Positions 3,020 to 37,305 are shown, counted from the stretch's first letter. The stretch: 38,067 nt of DNA from Desulfobacterales bacterium (GCA_027064285.1 JAMOPX010000174.1:1-38067), one strand, 5' to 3'. Notes: a model not told the origin generated them from the sequence alone. Made by a program: numbers and translations.

Positions 3020-5528
3020 AGTATATTAAATTTATTCCTATAAAATACTCTGTATAGTTGGCTGATTTGCTGATTTGAGAGCTAAGTTGTGCTTCAAAAT
3101 GAGGAGTTATAAGCTTTCGTAGTAAAACTTTTATCTTATATCCTAATCCAAAAAATTCTCTTCCTCTGTATTTTTCTCCTATTTCAGGACTAAATGGATA
3201 ATGCGGTGAGTCTTTTGTTTTATAATAAAGTGCACCAGATCCAATACTTATGTCACAAAGGTATGTCCTGCATTTTTTTGTTTGTAAATGGAAAAAAGGG
3301 CCTGTTACAAGTAGAACCTTTGGGCTAAAGTATCCGCCATGTCCATATGTAAAGTAATCAGAGTTATGTTCAAAATGTTCTGCAGAAAGAAAAAGTCCTG
3401 TAGAATAATTTCCAGACTCTAACAGATATGTTTTTCCTATACTAATTCCTCCAAAATATCTGTGGTTGTCCCAGATATGTCTTCCCCAGATATAATTATA
3501 GCCACCTTTAAGAGAAAGCCACAAAGAATCGGGAAGAGAAAATGTTTTACCTGCTTCAAGACCAAGCTTTAGGACTCTACCCCATCTTTTTTCACTGTAA
3601 GGGTCTTTTAAACCAACATAGGATAAAATGCTTTCTTCTATTGGTTCTTGATAAAACTGAATATATCTATTTTTCTGTCTTATTCCAAAAAGGAATGTAA
3701 GCATTGGGTATACAGGACCATTTAAAGAAGTTGTTCCAACCTTGAGATGATAATGAGTATAGCCTTCTTTTTCCCATACTATTTCAGGATAAACTGCCCA
3801 CGTAGAAGTTATAAGATTGTGTCTTAAAGTATGCCTAAAAGCCTTTCCAACATAAGGAAAATCAGGGCTGCTTCCTGATGAAAGCCTTTTTGTTGTGAGA
3901 ATAAAATCTATTTTCTTCCCAAGAATATAAGGATAAGAGAAAGTGTAGGATGTGTAAAATTCATTTAACTGTGATGTTCCAGAGGTTCCTGCCTTGTGTC
4001 TATAATAAGTTGATATTCCAACAGAAGGAGAATCTGCATTAAAATAGCATGTGTTTTTGTCATGATATATCTGGGAAGCAGTTATTGGACATTCATGTGA
4101 AAAGAAAAAATCTGCTGAAATCTTTTTTGTCTTTTCTCTTTTGGCTACTTTCTTTGCATAATGAAATGCCTTTTTTAGATCTTTCTTAGAATAGATTCCA
4201 AGAACCATCTTTACACTTGAAGGATCATCTTGCTCTTTTATAAAAAAAGGAAGCGCATCTTTTATCTTTTTTTCTTTATAAAAAACCCACGCTAAAAATT
4301 TTTTAGCTTTCTTATTTTTTGGATCTAAAAAGAGGATCTTTTTTAGGTAAAGCTCACATTCTTTGTATTCTTTTTTGTCATAAGCTTTGCTTGCTTTTTT
4401 GAAATATAGACCTATCTTAAGTTTCTTAAATCTATCACTTTTATATCTTTCAGAAATCTTCAGTGCTTCATTATATCTTTCTAACTTCATAAGGACATAA
4501 GCTAAGGGAAAAGCTGTCTTTTCAGAAGGTCCTTTTTTATAAAGAGACAAAAAGATTTTGTATGCTTCATTATATCTTTTTCTTTTAATATACCACCATC
4601 CTAAGATATTTAATGTTGCTTCATCATTTGGATTAATTAAAAGAATCTCTTTTGCTATTTTTTCTATATTCTTAGATGAAGGAAGATATGCTTTAAGAAC
4701 ATATAACCTCAGATTTTTCAACTCATTTTTGTAAGAAGAAGAAAATTCTTTATTCTTCATGTCTTTTTTTATTATTTGATCAAGCCTTTCATATGAAATC
4801 ATGTTCTTTAGCTTGTAAAACACAGCTATTCTGAGTTTTTCATCTTTACTGCATTTAAGAAGCGCATAATATATTCTTATAGCCTCTTTTTTTTCTCCTT
4901 TTTCAGAAAGGATCTTTGCGGTCTTAAAATAAAGATAAGGAAAAATACATCTTTTTAACTCATTTCTATAGCTAAGCTTAATTAGTTCTTTTAAATCAGC
5001 TCTCTTTTGAGCATACAAAAGTCTTTCTCTTAGAATGTTTCTTTCTATTTTTTCTTTCCATATCTTTCTTTGTCCTTTATTCAGCTTAGGCAAATACAAA
5101 CGAGCTTCTTTGTATTTTTTTTCTTTCATTAAGATACCAAGAAGCATAGGAGTTGTTATTTTTAGTTGATATTTTGATCTCACAAGCTCTTTTAAAATAG
5201 GAATAGCCTTTTTTTCATTATTTTCATTGACATACGAACATGCTAATCCAAACAGTGCATTTAATTTGGTATCTTCATATTTAGAGGCCATCTTAAAAAG
5301 AATAATAGCCTTTTTGTATTTTCCTTTATTGTAGAGATTCCATGCTTCTGTTATATAAAGTTTTCCAATAGTAGGCGATATTTTTTCTTTTTTTTCTTTT
5401 TGTTTTATTGTGATCGGAGCTGTTCCCTGCTGTGGCTTTTGTTTTAATTTTATTATCTTAGCGTGTGCCAGTGCCGAAAAAATAATCAAAATAGATATAG
5501 CAAGTAATTTATTATTTATCTTTTTCAC
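2991..5528 (-). CDS. bcsC: Cellulose synthase operon protein C (TPR + outer-membrane beta-barrel)
   Basis: Signal peptide, then ~450 aa of TPR-like repeats, then a Gly/aromatic-rich beta-strand region ending in a terminal aromatic (..HYKLF). It is the last gene of the bcsA-B-Z-C order and overlaps bcsZ by 17 nt. Confidence 0.8.
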   Translation of the reverse strand: MKKINNKLLAISILIIFSALAHAKIIKLKQKPQQGTAPITIKQKEKKEKISPTIGKLYITEAWNLYNKGKYKKAIILFKMASKYEDTKLNALFGLACSYVNENNEKKAIPILKELVRSKYQLKITTPMLLGILMKEKKYKEARLYLPKLNKGQRKIWKEKIERNILRERLLYAQKRADLKELIKLSYRNELKRCIFPYLYFKTAKILSEKGEKKEAIRIYYALLKCSKDEKLRIAVFYKLKNMISYERLDQIIKKDMKNKEFSSSYKNELKNLRLYVLKAYLPSSKNIEKIAKEILLINPNDEATLNILGWWYIKRKRYNEAYKIFLSLYKKGPSEKTAFPLAYVLMKLERYNEALKISERYKSDRFKKLKIGLYFKKASKAYDKKEYKECELYLKKILFLDPKNKKAKKFLAWVFYKEKKIKDALPFFIKEQDDPSSVKMVLGIYSKKDLKKAFHYAKKVAKREKTKKISADFFFSHECPITASQIYHDKNTCYFNADSPSVGISTYYRHKAGTSGTSQLNEFYTSYTFSYPYILGKKIDFILTTKRLSSGSSPDFPYVGKAFRHTLRHNLITSTWAVYPEIVWEKEGYTHYHLKVGTTSLNGPVYPMLTFLFGIRQKNRYIQFYQEPIEESILSYVGLKDPYSEKRWGRVLKLGLEAGKTFSLPDSLWLSLKGGYNYIWGRHIWDNHRYFGGISIGKTYLLESGNYSTGLFLSAEHFEHNSDYFTYGHGGYFSPKVLLVTGPFFHLQTKKCRTYLCDISIGSGALYYKTKDSPHYPFSPEIGEKYRGREFFGLGYKIKVLLRKLITPHFEAQLSSQISKSANYTEYFIGINLIYFIKPHYKLF

Positions 5529-6564
5529 TCTTCCAATCTTTTGCTAACAAATATAAGCTAAAGAAATAATAATTTTTTTTATCTAAGGATAGTTTCTGCT
5601 CAGCAATCTTAAATAACTTTTTTGAAACAGATTCTTCACCTATGCTTTCAGCAACCCTTGCATATATGGCATAATATCCTGATGGAGCTTCTTTTAATGA
5701 AAAACTGTCATGAACAAGATCAACCCACAAAGGGATATAAGAGAATCTTTTGTAAAGGTCTATGATTCTGTTACCTATACTATTCAAGCTCTTTTCTTTT
5801 TCCATGCATAGATAGAGAGACACTCTTACTGCATTATATCCAAAGTATATGCTCTTTTCTTCATGGATAAATATCCCGTCTTCTTTTAGAAGAATCCAAT
5901 CTGAAGGAAGTTTAAGCAGTCCAAATCTTGCCTTTGAAAGTAACCATACTGAATCCTGATAAATTTTTTCCCAAAATTTTTTATTTTCAAATTTTGAAAA
6001 CAATTTAAATGCTGGAAGTATTAGATAGGAAGGATTCAAAATAAGAAAATCTTTATCCTTAAATCCAAAATATCCTGGCAAAAGAAACATATGGCCTTTC
6101 CAAGATATACAAAGCTCCTTTCTTATATCTTTCAAAATTTCAATAGCATATTTTTTGTAATCTTCATCTTTCCATTTTTTAAAAGCCTTAAGAAGGGCAT
6201 AAGCAATTAAGATATCACCATCACTGGCATTATTATAATCAATTACCTGCCAATTTCCATTAGGTCTTCTTCCCCAGCTCCATGCAAAAAGTTTATCTTT
6301 TCTTATCTGAAGATTATCTTTTGTCCATTTCCAGACAAGATCAAATGTTTTTTTATCATTATAGATTGTGGAAAGAAGCATTCCATATCCTTGCCCTTCT
6401 GAATGACTGATCTGACCATTTTGATAATCAATTACTCTTCCCTCATTGTTTATAAAGTTTTTTTTATATTCCTTCCATAAGGAAGGATCTAAAGGAAAAG
6501 CTGCTGACGAAAAAAGAATAGAGAATGCTATAATAAAATTAATCTTCAATATACTCTTCCACAT
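5512..6564 (-). CDS. bcsZ: Endo-1,4-beta-glucanase, glycoside hydrolase family 8
   Basis: GH8 signature SEGQGYGML and a signal peptide. It sits between bcsB and bcsC and overlaps bcsB by 26 nt. Confidence 0.85.
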   Translation of the reverse strand: MWKSILKINFIIAFSILFSSAAFPLDPSLWKEYKKNFINNEGRVIDYQNGQISHSEGQGYGMLLSTIYNDKKTFDLVWKWTKDNLQIRKDKLFAWSWGRRPNGNWQVIDYNNASDGDILIAYALLKAFKKWKDEDYKKYAIEILKDIRKELCISWKGHMFLLPGYFGFKDKDFLILNPSYLILPAFKLFSKFENKKFWEKIYQDSVWLLSKARFGLLKLPSDWILLKEDGIFIHEEKSIYFGYNAVRVSLYLCMEKEKSLNSIGNRIIDLYKRFSYIPLWVDLVHDSFSLKEAPSGYYAIYARVAESIGEESVSKKLFKIAEQKLSLDKKNYYFFSLYLLAKDWKSEKDK

Positions 6565-11261: not shown

Positions 11262-11274
11262 CTCATCTGTAATC
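11262..11274 (-). repeat. 13-nt motif ctcatctgtaatc, the exact inverted partner of 11553-11565
   Basis: Exact reverse complement of gattacagatgag. It has the same orientation as the downstream bcsA gene. Confidence 0.6.
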
Positions 11275-11447
11275 AAAAAATATCACGAAATAATGGTAAA
11301 GCAAAAAATGGACAGGAAAGATGCAACCTTAACTAATAAAAAATCCAGAATAAGCAAAGATTAAGAAAATTAGCTGATTATCATCTACAAGTATCCAAAT
11401 ATAGGTTTAAGACCCAAAATTTCTGCTGTGAAGCTGTTTTTTGCCTA

Positions 11448-11534
11448 ATAACTGATCTTACGCAAAAGTTTTTATCTCACGAGGGAGAGATACCAGCGAA
11501 TTAAGACAGAAACTTTTTCGTAAGGTCAGTTAAT
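11448..11534 (-). mobile_element. 87-bp ends-only (internally deleted) member of the foldback element family, inverted relative to the full copies
   Basis: The left half (atcttacgcaaaagtttttatctcacgagggagagataccagcgaat) is the reverse complement of the right end of copy A (13688-13735). The right half (taagacagaaactttttcgtaaggtcag) is the reverse complement of the left end of copies A and B. The ~310-bp core is absent. Confidence 0.75.
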
Positions 11535-11552
11535 AAAAAAAAGCTTAGTTGT

Positions 11553-11565
11553 GATTACAGATGAG
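11553..11565 (+). repeat. 13-nt motif gattacagatgag, 3 nt upstream of the sHSP -35 box
   Basis: Exact inverted partner of 11262-11274. Twelve of its 13 nt recur at 13888-13900. Confidence 0.6.
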
Positions 11566-13215: not shown

Positions 13216-13270
13216 AGCCGCAGCTCTTTAACACTTCAAACACAAACAGTCAAGCCAGTATGAGCCTGTT

Positions 13271-13291
13271 CAGCAATTCTCGGTGAGAAAC
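13271..13291 (+). repeat. 21-nt direct repeat cagcaattctcggtgagaaac (partner at 14275-14295)
   Basis: The two copies match at 20 of 21 positions. Confidence 0.7.
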
Positions 13292-13347
13292 AAATTATAC
13301 AAATACCAATTAGGCGTTCACTTTATAAATTTTTTCCATAACTTTCC

Positions 13348-13750
13348 ATAACTGATCTTATGCAAAAGTTTCTATCTTATCTATATATATAGTATAGGGG
13401 TAAGACTGGAAATAGATATAGGGGCAAAAGGGTTTTTCGGATGCGACTGTCGAAAGGGCGCTGTCTCTTCATGGCTTATCTGTGGGGGAAACCGCAGCCC
13501 GTCACTCAAGTTTCTCCAAAACAAGCATATTCCTTTACCAGACATCCAAGCCCATTCATTGATAAGCATATTTGATTAACAGCTGAGTGACGGGAATGCG
13601 GAGGGGGCAGGTATCCCCCACAGATAAGTCACAGAAGAGACCAGCCCGAGAGACTCGGAGCAGAAGAAAAACCCTTTTGCCCCTATACCGCATTCGCTGG
13701 TATCTCTCTCTCGTGAGATAAAAACTTTTGTTCCATAAGGAACTATCAGT
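13348..13750 (+). repeat. ~400-bp GC-rich foldback element, copy A (unclassified structured-RNA gene or MITE-like element)
   Basis: It has terminal inverted repeats and a long imperfect central hairpin. Perfect stems are 13417-13438/13666-13687 (22 bp), 13475-13489/13614-13628 (15 bp) and 13498-13508/13584-13594 (11 bp), with a 75-nt apical region. It is closely similar along its length to 36864-37260. Element boundaries are uncertain by tens of nt. Confidence 0.8.
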
Positions 13751-13887
13751 CAGCCATTTGTTTGTTGATGATAAAATTATATAGAAATTTCTTAAAGGGG
13801 GATTTTAAACCAATAGTGGTATAATTTTCTTTACTTATCATCGGTTCATCTCCTAGAATTTTTGTCCCTGTAGAGGGATAGTTTTTT

Positions 13888-13900
13888 AATTACAGATGAG
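13888..13900 (+). repeat. Third copy of the attacagatgag motif, 13 nt upstream of the tRNA-Lys -35 box
   Basis: aattacagatgag shares 12 nt exactly with 11554-11565. Confidence 0.55.
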
Positions 13901-14101: not shown

Positions 14102-14192
14102 ATCATGAAATTAGCCACCTATTAGTCACCTTTTTGCGAAAGACATTATAAGGAATGTCATAATAAGGCTTTTGGATCATGCTTCTGGGTTA

Positions 14193-14236
14193 TACCAATA
14201 CCAATTAGGAGTTCACTTTATAAATTTTCCATAACT
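14193..14236 (+). repeat. Solo left-end fragment of the foldback element family
   Basis: taccaataccaattaggagttcactttataaattttccataactgacctta matches the left flank and first ~13 nt of copy A (13303-13360), then diverges. Confidence 0.65.
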
Positions 14237-14274
14237 GACCTTACCTTAACTTCTTGAAAAGATATATAGTTTAC

Positions 14275-14295
14275 CAGCAATTCTCGGTCAGAAAC
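14275..14295 (+). repeat. 21-nt direct repeat cagcaattctcggtcagaaac (partner at 13271-13291)
   Basis: The two copies match at 20 of 21 positions. Confidence 0.7.
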
Positions 14296-14327
14296 TGGTC
14301 AACTTTGGTGATAGTTTACATAATTTC

Positions 14328-36822: not shown

Positions 36823-36863
36823 TATAGTCATCTGCATAATTGCGAATAACTATAAATGTAATA

Positions 36864-37260
36864 ATAACAGACCTTATGCAAAAGTTTCTGTCTTATCTGT
36901 ATGCAGTATAGGGGTAAGACTGGAAGTGGAATAGGGGCAAGGGGGTTTTTCGAATGCGACTGTCGGAAGGGCGCTGTCTCTTCTCTGACTTATCTGTGGG
37001 GGAAACCGCAGCCCGTCACTCAAGTTTCTCCAAAACAAGCATATTCCTTTACCAGACATCCAAGTCCATGCATGGGTAAGTATATTTGATTAACAGCTGA
37101 GTGACGGGAATGCAGAGGGGGCAGATATCCCCCGCAAATAAGTCAGAGAAGAGCCCAGCCCGAGAGACTCAGAGCAAACGAAAAACCTTTTTGACCCAAT
37201 ACCACATTCGTTGTTATTCTTCCCTTGTGAGATAAACCATTTTGCGTAAGGTCAGATAAT
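36864..37260 (+). repeat. ~400-bp GC-rich foldback element, copy B
   Basis: Collinear with copy A in the same orientation. A 76-nt block (36989-37064) is identical to 13475-13550 and there is a further 31-nt identical block. Terminal inverted repeats agaccttatgcaaaag / cttttgcgtaaggtcag. Confidence 0.8.
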
Positions 37261-37305
37261 AAATTTAGTATTTCACAAAATTTTATGTTTTGCGGAATAC
37301 TGTAA

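What the first reader, a model, noticed from the sequence alone, without database searches (positions are those of the whole stretch)
13348..13750. Unclassified ~400-bp GC-rich foldback element (copy A): candidate novel structured RNA or non-autonomous mobile element
The unit folds back on itself almost end to end. Terminal inverted repeats (ataactgatcttatgcaaaagttt... versus ...aaacttttg..taagg..tcagt) enclose a rod with three perfect stems. These are 13417-13438 with 13666-13687 (22 bp), 13475-13489 with 13614-13628 (15 bp), and 13498-13508 with 13584-13594 (11 bp). A 75-nt non-palindromic apical region (13509-13583) caps the rod. The C5 tract 13615-13619 can pair with the distant G5 at 13484-13488 or with the local G5 at 13603-13607 (ggggg-caggtat-ccccc). 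These pairings are mutually exclusive, and both options are kept in copy B. By my count the left arm 13421-13510 is 51/90 G+C, in a window that is otherwise visibly AT-rich. The only other GC-rich islands here are the tRNAs and SRP RNA, and in AT-rich thermophiles such islands are classic indicators of structured RNA. I see no resemblance to tRNA, tmRNA, RNase P, 6S, SRP, riboswitches or group I/II introns. No transposase, reverse transcriptase, Cas or TnpB/IscB gene is adjacent.
Basis: partly seen in the sequence, partly recalled or inferred. Interest (0 to 1): 0.85.

Follow-up and report, generated by a model that had tools for sequence, protein, structure and literature searches.

The report
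Nested miniature transposon, not RNA gene
The GC-rich foldback is one copy of a previously undescribed family of small non-coding transposons (MITEs) scattered through hydrothermal-vent bacterial genomes; it is an ordinary kind of selfish DNA, and nothing found here points to a structured RNA gene.

Summary
All three stems are perfect, the left-arm G+C count is exact, and the fold has a z-score of about -10 on either strand.

The element is a MITE, a small non-autonomous DNA transposon.
- One metagenome scan with the terminal motif recovered about 58 related loci.
- These include 11 full-length copies of about 383 nt, 84-91% identical to copy A.
- Many internally deleted forms of 60-300 nt were also found, all ending in the same 20-bp inverted repeats (CTGACCTTACGCAAAAGTTT).
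- Copies are flanked by 7-bp, sometimes 8-bp, AT-rich target-site duplications with consensus TTAATAA.

The window holds three copies:
- A, true span 13352-13730, with the last 11 nt of its right terminal repeat lost.
- B, 36868-37255.
- C, a 78-nt mini copy at 11452-11529.

A and C each sit inside a different short repeat, and uninterrupted paralogues of those repeats show the empty site. Two related genomes lack B at the orthologous site.

The 11 full-length copies show no covariation, no coding signal and no Rfam match. No transposase with matching ends was found, so the mobilising enzyme is unknown.

Verdict: a new member of a known kind, of low to moderate interest.

The parts
13352..13730 (+). 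Copy A of the MITE (379 nt). It is full length except that the last 11 nt of the right terminal repeat (CGTAAGGTCAG) are missing, so it is probably no longer mobile.
   Evidence: Alignment with 10 other full-length copies. The fold has z about -10.
13352..13371 (+). Left terminal inverted repeat of copy A (CTGATCTTATGCAAAAGTTT).
   Evidence: Pattern search found 5 matches in the window against 0.04 expected. The same terminus occurs in about 58 metagenome loci.
13722..13730 (+). Remnant (AAACTTTTG) of the right terminal inverted repeat of copy A.
   Evidence: Alignment A2 shows that all other copies continue with CGTAAGGTCAG.
13344..13351 (.). Target-site duplication of copy A, left copy (TTCCATAA).
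   Evidence: uninterrupted paralogues of the host repeat read TTTCCATAAGGAAC once.
13731..13738 (.). Target-site duplication of copy A, right copy (TTCCATAA).
13417..13687 (+). GC-rich rod. It comprises the 22-, 15- and 11-bp perfect stems, the 75-nt apical region 13509-13583 and the local hairpin 13603-13619. It represents the two arms of a long internal inverted repeat.
   Evidence: The consensus arms are identical at 114 of 144 aligned positions.
36868..37255 (+). Copy B of the MITE (388 nt), with both terminal repeats present.
   Evidence: The orthologous site is empty in relatives L106 and L107.
36861..36867 (.). Target-site duplication of copy B, left copy (ATAATAA).
37256..37262 (.). 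Target-site duplication of copy B, right copy (ATAATAA).
11452..11529 (-). Copy C, a 78-nt mini element in the opposite orientation. It consists of the two ends only; the equivalent of A positions 13380-13691 is deleted.
11445..11451 (.). Target-site duplication of copy C, left copy (CTAATAA).
   Evidence: uninterrupted copies of the host repeat read GCTTAATAGAGGGCTTAG.
11530..11536 (.). Target-site duplication of copy C, right copy (TTAATAA).
14236..14245 (+). Solo 10-nt fragment of the left terminal repeat (CTGACCTTAC). It lies at the same junction (…TTCCATAA|CTGA…) in a second, partial copy of the host repeat.
13295..13351 (+). Left part of the 'family 2' short repeat that hosts copy A. The complete repeat is about 134 nt, with ends TTATACCAATAC…GTATTGGTATAA.
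   Evidence: Intact copies lie at L085:7479-7612 and L021:1147-1269.
13731..13824 (+).
   Evidence: 93% identity to L085 over 92 nt.
11262..11565 (.). 'Family 3' short repeat that hosts copy C, with inverted ends CTCATCTGTAAT…ATTACAGATGAG.

Best explanation
Copy A is one copy of a family of miniature inverted-repeat transposable elements (MITEs). These are non-coding DNA transposons that carry no transposase of their own.

Shown:
- Each intact element ends in a 20-bp inverted repeat, CTGACCTTACGCAAAAGTTT … AAACTTTTGCGTAAGGTCAG.
- Each is flanked by a direct duplication of 7 (sometimes 8) bp of AT-rich target DNA, consensus TTAATAA.
- The family is dispersed over dozens of intergenic sites in related uncultured vent bacteria. 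The nearest named relatives are MAGs labelled Deltaproteobacteria.

Inferred:
- A transposase encoded elsewhere binds the two terminal repeats and cuts the element out or copies it.
- It inserts the element at a staggered 7-8-bp cut, whose repair produces the duplication.

The near end-to-end foldback exists because the element is built as one long inverted repeat (two arms of about 150 nt) around a 75-nt unique centre. It is a consequence of how the element arose, not an RNA structure maintained at each locus (inferred). The hairpin also explains the many internally deleted forms. The commonest, of about 208 nt, removes exactly the apical part of the rod at the base of a stem. That form then spread, because it kept the only parts transposition needs, the ends (inferred).

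Copy A inserted into another short repeat and later lost 11 nt of its right end, so it is probably immobile.
For: 1. Terminal repeats. The motif occurs 5 times in the window against 0.04 expected. It also terminates 28 complete elements in the metagenome loci and the window.
2. Target-site duplications. Of 28 complete elements, 9 have an exact 7-bp duplication and 14 have at most one mismatch. Mismatched-flank controls give 0.67 and 3.5. Two more have exact 8-bp duplications. The sequences vary (TGAAGAAA, TTAAGAT, TTGATAA, TAGATAA, TTATATAA), so these are not part of the element.
3. Empty sites.
   - Copy A interrupts a 134-nt repeat whose intact paralogues (L085, L021) read TTTCCATAAGGAAC once.
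   - Copy C interrupts another repeat whose intact copies (L048, L040, L085, L105, L016) read GCTTAATAGAGGGC.
   - At copy B's site, two relatives (PlsB 81% and 77% identical) have a 0-nt spacer where the window has 483 nt.
4. Family structure. There are 11 full-length copies, 84-91% identical to A, plus deletion forms of 60-300 nt that all keep both ends. The form of about 208 nt has one shared junction in at least 9 loci with different flanks.
5. Location. All of about 63 instances are intergenic.
6. No coding signal. Substitutions fall 27/46/40 and 38/33/20 over codon positions in the two recurrent ORFs.
7. No RNA signal. The covariation term is -0.48 kcal/mol. Four of 132 pairs changed on both sides, against 2.5 in shuffles (107 of 500 shuffles reach 4). 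Between A and B, 34 of 135 pairs differ and nearly all became mismatches or wobbles. There is no Rfam hit.
8. Origin of the fold. The consensus arms are 114/144 identical as an inverted repeat, and one subfamily's left arm mirrors the right arm even further out.
Against: - No autonomous partner, meaning a transposase gene flanked by the same ends, was found in the window, in the fetched loci or in plasmids.
- The master sequence is GC-rich (about 48%) in a 35% G+C genome, while individual copies decay mainly by G>A and C>T (132 of 246 substitutions). This hints that something keeps the source copy GC-rich, or that it arrived recently from elsewhere.
- All 11 copies fold 2.5-30 kcal/mol better on the + strand than on the - strand. 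The consensus arm mismatches are 9 G·T against 3 A·C. This is in the direction expected for a single-stranded + strand molecule, but it is not significant (about p = 0.15) and the copies are not independent.
- About half of the complete elements lack a clean duplication. This is expected from decay and from rearrangements at copies, for example L018 against L084.
Confidence: 0.9

Rival explanations
1. The rod is a functional structured RNA. It could be a small RNA, a ribozyme-like RNA or a transposon-encoded guide or regulator. In this reading the RNA happens to be carried between transposon ends, so the element is a mobile RNA gene rather than plain selfish DNA.
For:
- The central region is highly conserved, with 75 nt identical between A and B.
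- The local GGGGG-N7-CCCCC hairpin is kept in essentially all full-length copies.
- Every copy folds better on the + strand.
- Wobble-type changes slightly outnumber A·C-type changes, 38 against 25 among copies and 9 against 3 in the consensus.
- Paired columns vary less than unpaired ones, 5.1% against 8.0% per cell.
Against: - There is no covariation beyond shuffled controls.
- There is no Rfam match.
- No promoter-like site lies inside copy A, and no terminator follows it.
- Copies lie in both orientations relative to their neighbours.
- Forms lacking the whole apical half, or everything but the ends, have spread to many loci.
- The conservation is what recent transposition from a master copy gives without any selection at the loci.
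Confidence: 0.05
2. Individual copies have been co-opted by the host as cis-acting hairpins. Once transcribed as part of neighbouring mRNAs they would act as transcript stabilisers, RNase III targets or attenuators, as described for Correia and ERIC elements. Under this reading a transposon origin is accepted.
For: Copies sit within 10-100 nt of gene ends. Copy B lies between two convergent genes. Copy A lies between ydjM and tRNA-Lys. Copy C lies between divergent bcsA-like and hsp20 genes. The rod is extremely stable.
Against: Nothing tested here speaks to expression. Orientation appears mixed on inspection. Relatives do without copy B.
Confidence: 0.1
3. The copies are an inert local duplication or palindrome confined to this contig, with no mobility.
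For: Only three copies are visible in the window. A 66-nt stretch including the A junction is duplicated 895 nt away.
Against: About 58 loci with unrelated flanks carry the element, and target-site duplications and empty sites are documented.
Confidence: 0.01

Closest known systems
Bacterial MITEs in general, for example Correia elements of Neisseria, RUP of Streptococcus pneumoniae and ERIC/IRU of enterobacteria (from established knowledge)
   Same: All are short and non-coding, bounded by terminal inverted repeats, flanked by target duplications, multi-copy, intergenic and able to fold into a long hairpin. Size variants arise by internal deletion.
   Different: - There is no sequence similarity, and none of these families has this terminus.
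- Correia and RUP duplicate TA and are tied to IS630-like transposases, whereas this family duplicates 7-8 bp.
- At 383 nt with a rod of about 48% G+C, it is longer and more GC-rich than those examples.
- The host is an uncultured vent lineage.
IS4-family ends, the IS50/Tn5 outside end CTGACTCTTATACACAAGT (recalled from memory, so a lead only)
   Same: The terminus starts with CTGAC and aligns at about 15 of 19 positions with one gap (CTGAC-CTTACGCAAAAGT). IS4-family enzymes make staggered cuts that give long duplications.
   Different: Tn5 duplicates 9 bp, not 7-8. No IS4-type transposase was found with these ends. The similarity was not tested statistically. From memory, other families with 7-9-bp duplications (IS1595/IS1016, IS6, ISL3, IS982) are equally possible.
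IS630-family insertion sequence found beside a composite copy in locus L073
   Same: It lies adjacent to a family member. Its left end (GTGCCTACTTGCAAAAGT) shares the GCAAAAGT core.
   Different: It has its own ends, TA|GTGCC…TAAGCAC|TA, placed tight around the gene in six independent loci. It duplicates TA. It is therefore a separate element that landed in the same repeat nest.
   Same: Similar size class, GC-rich and highly structured.
   Different: There is no Rfam hit. No adjacent IscB, TnpB or IS110 gene is present in the window. The element has inverted repeats and target duplications, which those systems lack.

Membership tests
MITE (miniature inverted-repeat transposable element) | Small size (tens to a few hundred bp) | tested here: met
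   Complete elements are 60-388 nt, and the full-length form is about 383 nt.
MITE (miniature inverted-repeat transposable element) | Terminal inverted repeats shared by all copies | tested here: met
   The 20-bp repeat CTGACCTTACGCAAAAGTTT is present at both ends of 28 complete elements. In the window it gives 5 matches against 0.04 expected.
MITE (miniature inverted-repeat transposable element) | Target-site duplication of fixed length flanking each copy | tested here: met
   A 7-bp duplication is exact in 9 of 28 elements and has at most one mismatch in 14 of 28, against 0.67 and 3.5 in controls. An 8-bp duplication is exact in 2. Copy A has TTCCATAA and copy B has ATAATAA.
MITE (miniature inverted-repeat transposable element) | No coding capacity | tested here: met
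   The recurrent short ORFs show no third-position excess (27/46/40 and 38/33/20). They are absent from some copies and are removed in the short forms.
MITE (miniature inverted-repeat transposable element) | Many dispersed copies with unrelated flanks | tested here: met
   About 58 true loci were found among 93 pattern hits, and all instances are intergenic.
MITE (miniature inverted-repeat transposable element) | Presence/absence at otherwise identical sites | tested here: met
   Paralogous empty sites exist for A and C. An orthologous empty site for B is seen in L106 and L107.
MITE (miniature inverted-repeat transposable element) | An autonomous insertion sequence with the same termini that supplies the transposase | tested here: inconclusive
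   None was found among solo ends in the fetched loci, in the window or in plasmids. The collection scans were exhausted, and repeats break metagenome assemblies.
Any described RNA family (Rfam 15) | Score at or above the family gathering threshold | tested here: not met
   There is no hit over the element at gathering thresholds. The best permissive hits are 15-19 bits with E of at least 1.
Structured functional RNA (generic) | Compensatory base changes that keep the helices | tested here: not met
   Four of 132 pairs have one change on both sides each, against a shuffle mean of 2.5 (107 of 500 shuffles reach 4). The covariation term is -0.48 kcal/mol. Power is limited because the copies are about 90% alike.
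Structured functional RNA (generic) | A discrete transcript | not testable with these tools
   No expression data are available. No promoter-like site lies inside copy A.
IS630/Tc1-mariner-derived MITE | TA target duplication | tested here: not met
   The duplications are 7-8 bp, and several flanks do not end in TA, for example TGAAGAAA.
IS200/IS605 derivatives (PATEs, TnpB reRNA) | No terminal inverted repeats and no target duplication, with subterminal hairpins next to tnpA or tnpB | tested here: not met
   The element has both inverted repeats and duplications. No tnpB lies in the window.

The most novel reading that the evidence does not exclude
The GC-rich rod may not be mere filler. It could be a functional single-stranded molecule, either RNA or a + strand DNA hairpin, that the master element is selected to keep. 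It might be a transposon-borne regulatory or guide RNA, or a structure the unknown transposase needs. This would explain why the source copy stays at about 48% G+C in a 35% genome, why its arm mismatches lean towards G·T, and why every copy folds better on one strand.
Probability: 0.06. Interest if true: 0.6.

Novelty: new member of a known kind. Interest (0 to 1): 0.22.

Why it matters
- It removes a false lead. A striking 400-nt GC-rich rod in an AT-rich genome looks like a large structured RNA but is selfish DNA.
- It gives annotators of vent 'Deltaproteobacteria' MAGs a defined repeat family, with its ends, target site and size classes. The family breaks assemblies and, at several loci examined here, lies where relatives stop aligning.
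- It shows that these small genomes carry nests of at least three short transposon families inserted into one another.
- It leaves a concrete open question: which transposase recognises CTGACCTTACGCAAAAGTTT and makes 7-8-bp duplications?

Tried and rejected
1. Known RNA families. Rfam was searched at gathering and at permissive thresholds and gave nothing.
2. Genome-collection scan with the core 20-mer. It returned only a 20-nt chance match in an actinomycete MAG.
3. Viral contigs, searched with both the terminus and the core. No match.
4. Plasmids, blastn with the family consensus. No match.
5. Literature, searched for the terminus as a string and for MITEs in hydrothermal bacteria. Nothing relevant.
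6. Orthologous locus of copy A through RnfC-like relatives. Synteny ends at window 14311-14316, so those loci are uninformative for A.
7. Coding hypothesis for the recurrent 57- and 44-codon ORFs. Rejected on codon-position counts.
8. IS630-family transposase in L073 as the partner. Rejected, because six loci show its own ends tight around the gene with a TA duplication.
9. IS607-type TnpA fragment in L072 and an unassigned ORF in L016 near element fragments. Treated as neighbours in repeat nests, because IS607-type elements make neither inverted repeats nor duplications.
10. About 35 of the 93 metagenome pattern hits are chance, mostly ATGAAAAAGTTT… gene starts.
11. Strand asymmetry as evidence for RNA. 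The direction is consistent but not significant.

Full report
**Observation**

The three stems (22, 15 and 11 bp) are perfect reverse complements. The apical region is 75 nt. The G5/G5/C5 tracts lie at the stated positions. The left arm is 51/90 G+C. As a single strand, 13348-13750 folds at -167.2 kcal/mol on the + strand and -164.6 on the - strand. Shuffles give about -105 +/- 6, so z is about -10 on both strands. A second copy at 36864-37236 is 89% identical. Rfam finds only SRP RNA and four tRNAs in the window and nothing over the element, even at E up to 10.

**A third copy points to mobility**

The repeat search also found an 88-nt stretch at 11448-11535. It consists of the right end of copy A joined directly to its left end, in reverse orientation. 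The 20-nt terminus CTGAYCTTAYGCAAAAGTTT occurs five times in the window against 0.04 expected. A derivative that keeps only the two ends is what a transposon produces, not an RNA gene.

**Family in public data**

The window is a whole 38-kb contig of an uncultured bacterium with c3-type cytochrome, Rnf and cellulose-synthase genes. Its nearest named relatives are MAGs labelled Deltaproteobacteria, and one related contig comes from a hydrothermal-vent metagenome.

The single genome-collection scan, run with a core 20-mer, gave only a chance hit. The single metagenome scan used the terminal motif CTTAYGMAAAAGTTTYTRTCT and returned 93 stretches. About 35 of these are chance matches to gene starts. 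About 58 are true relatives, most from a few JGI samples.

BLAST with copy A shows 11 full-length copies of about 383 nt at 84-91% identity. It also shows many internally deleted forms of 60, 78, 145, 157, 165, 178, 208, 261, 291 and 300 nt. Every intact element ends in CTGACCTTACGCAAAAGTTT … AAACTTTTGCGTAAGGTCAG.

**Target-site duplications**

Among 28 elements with both ends and enough flank:
- the 7 bp outside the two ends are identical in 9 elements and differ at one position in 5 more;
- pairing left flanks with right flanks of other elements gives 0.67 and 3.5 respectively;
- two elements have exact 8-bp duplications.

The duplicated sequences differ between loci (TTAAGAT, TTGATAA, TAGATAA, TTATTAA, TGAAGAAA, TTATATAA). 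They follow an AT-rich target consensus, TTAATAA. Copy B has ATAATAA on both sides, and copy C has CTAATAA and TTAATAA.

**Empty sites**

Copy A initially seemed to lack a proper right end. Comparison with other loci explains why.
- A lies inside a different repeat of about 134 nt, here called family 2, with ends TTATACCAATAC…GTATTGGTATAA.
- Intact copies of that repeat (L085:7479-7612 and L021:1147-1269) read …TTTCCATAAGGAACTATCAGTCAGCC… without interruption.
- In the window this is split as …TTCCATAA|CTGATC…[A]…AAACTTTTG|TTCCATAA|GGAACTATCAG….
- A is therefore 13352-13730. It is flanked by an 8-bp duplication, TTCCATAA, and has lost the last 11 nt of its right terminal repeat.

Copy C likewise interrupts a third repeat, family 3 (11262-11565, ends CTCATCTGTAAT…ATTACAGATGAG). 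Intact copies of that repeat in five loci read GCTTAATAGAGGGCTTAGTTGTGATTACAGATGAG.

For copy B, the two closest relatives with assembled downstream DNA have PlsB-like proteins 81% and 77% identical to the window's. In both, the plsB stop codon abuts the stop of the convergent small ORF. The window has 483 nt there, containing B.

**RNA or DNA**

An alignment of the 11 full-length copies (A2) gives a consensus rod of 132 pairs.
- The covariation term is only -0.48 kcal/mol.
- Four pairs have a single sequence each with changes on both sides.
- In the explicit count, shuffles average 2.5 such pairs and 107 of 500 reach 4. The covariation score is 0.096 against 0.091.
- Between A and B, 34 of 135 pairs differ. 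Only two of the changed pairs stay Watson-Crick; one of these (13690:13697, in a small local hairpin) changed on both sides and the other changed from a wobble to a Watson-Crick pair. The rest become mismatches or wobbles.
- Substitutions among copies are dominated by G>A (70) and C>T (62) out of 246, which is AT-biased decay.
- The two arms of the consensus align as an inverted repeat at 114 of 144 positions. In one subfamily (L055, L017) the left subterminal region mirrors the right one even further out.
- The fold is therefore inherited from the element's construction as a long inverted repeat around a 75-nt centre.
- The commonest short form (about 208 nt) has one junction, GCGCTGTC|CAGCCCGAG, at the base of a stem. 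It occurs in at least 9 loci with different flanks and with both left-end subtypes. Elements without the apical half of the rod are therefore still spread.
- There is no coding signal.
- No promoter-like site lies inside copy A.
- All instances are intergenic, and they lie on either strand relative to the neighbouring ORFs.

**Residual hints for something more**

Three observations lean the other way.
- Every copy folds 2.5-30 kcal/mol better on the + strand.
- Arm mismatches in the consensus are 9 G·T against 3 A·C. Deviations among copies are 38 wobble against 25 A·C.
- The source sequence is about 48% G+C in a 35% genome although copies decay towards A+T.

None of these is significant, and the copies share ancestry. 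Together they keep a small probability for a functional single-stranded form of the master element.

**The transposase**

None of the window ORFs of at least 100 aa that were scanned is a transposase. ORFs inward of solo ends in the fetched loci look like ordinary cellular genes.

Two mobile-element genes lie next to family members.
- An IS607-type serine recombinase fragment abuts a 41-nt left end in L072.
- A DDE_3 (IS630-family) transposase lies in L073.

Relatives of the L073 protein were fetched in six loci. Homology between loci begins at TA|GTGCCTACTTGCAAAAGT about 80 nt upstream of the gene and ends at TAAGCAC|TA just past the stop. It is therefore a compact, separate IS630 element with a TA duplication, not the partner.

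The mobilising enzyme remains unknown. From memory, the terminus resembles the Tn5/IS50 outside end CTGACTCTTATACACAAGT. Also from memory, 7-9-bp duplications occur in parts of the IS4, IS1595, IS6, ISL3 and IS982 families. These are leads, not tests.

**Verdict**

The finding is a real and well-described sequence feature. It is best explained as a new family of bacterial MITEs, nested among at least two other short repeat families. It is a new member of a known kind, of modest interest. Its main value is for annotation and as a caution against reading GC-rich rods in AT-rich genomes as RNA genes.

Noticed in passing
window 13295-13351 + 13731-13824; partial second copy 14190-14235; L085:7479-7612; L021:1147-1269; L033:97-227: A second short repeat family ('family 2') of about 134 nt, with inverted ends TTATACCAATAC…GTATTGGTATAA. 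It hosts copy A. The extended -10-like TGGTATAAT at 13817-13825 is simply its right end.
   Followed up: partly
window 11262-11565 (hosting copy C); solo end at 13889-13900; L048:11575-11765; L040:6131-6319; L085, L016, L105, L010, L043, L074, L079, L090: A third short repeat family ('family 3', about 220 nt without its insert), with inverted ends CTCATCTGTAAT…ATTACAGATGAG. In the window (hsp20 and tRNA-Lys upstream regions) and in L048, L085 and L016, its right end lies 2-12 nt upstream of a -35-like CTTGAC(A). This suggests that it either targets promoters or carries part of one.
   Followed up: partly
window 13334-13351: Immediately left of copy A the target octamer is present twice in tandem, separated by CT (TTCCATAA-CT-TTCCATAA). 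Intact family 2 copies have it once. This may be a footprint of an earlier insertion and excision at the same site.
   Followed up: no
window 13270-13290 and 14277-14297; L031:1509-1545 and 2061-2088: A further repeat, CAGCAATTCTCGGTSAGAAAC. In L031 it flanks a full-length element on both sides in inverted orientation, so it is probably the end of yet another short mobile element.
   Followed up: no
window 14236-14316 compared with L003, L004, L005: Homology with three relatives upstream of the cytochrome c3/rnf operon begins only at about 14311-14316, at the operon promoter (TACATAATTTCTTGACAAA). Everything upstream differs between genomes, including the repeat nest, tRNA-Lys and copy A. L018 and L084 also share a left flank up to an element and then diverge. 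In these cases the point where relatives stop aligning lies at or next to a repeat.
   Followed up: partly
window 36823-36867 and 37263-37305; L078:5120-5157 and 5541-5615; L091:4455-4491 and 4875-4949: Copy B and the copies in L078 and L091 share about 30 nt of left flank (…ATTGCGAATAACTATAA…) and at least 10 nt of right flank. The window also has about 88 nt of spacer that relatives L106 and L107 lack. B may sit inside one more short repeat.
   Followed up: no
L073:36-1163; L099-L104: A compact IS630-family insertion sequence (356-aa DDE_3 transposase) with ends TA|GTGCCTACTTGCAAAAGT…TAAGCAC|TA. It is common as contigs of 1.1-2.2 kb in many metagenomes. In L073 it has landed in a composite of MITE fragments.
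   Followed up: yes
L072:8402-8866: A 41-nt left end of the MITE directly replaces about 25 N-terminal codons of an IS607-type serine recombinase gene (MerR HTH + Resolvase domains).
   Followed up: partly
L054:5387-5754; L073:1150-1839; L025:2222-2482; L010:833-989; L008:2190-2290: Some elements with the same terminal repeats carry a different internal module with its own inverted ends (CCAAGTTTGGCAAAAC…GGTGCCAAACTTGGG) that appears to be flanked by TA. The family is mosaic, with elements nested in and recombined with one another.
   Followed up: partly
window 13862-13887: A terminator-like hairpin with a T run on the + strand (TTGTCCCTGTAGAGGGATAG TTTTTT). It lies between the repeat nest and the tRNA-Lys promoter, and it is unclear what it terminates.
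   Followed up: no
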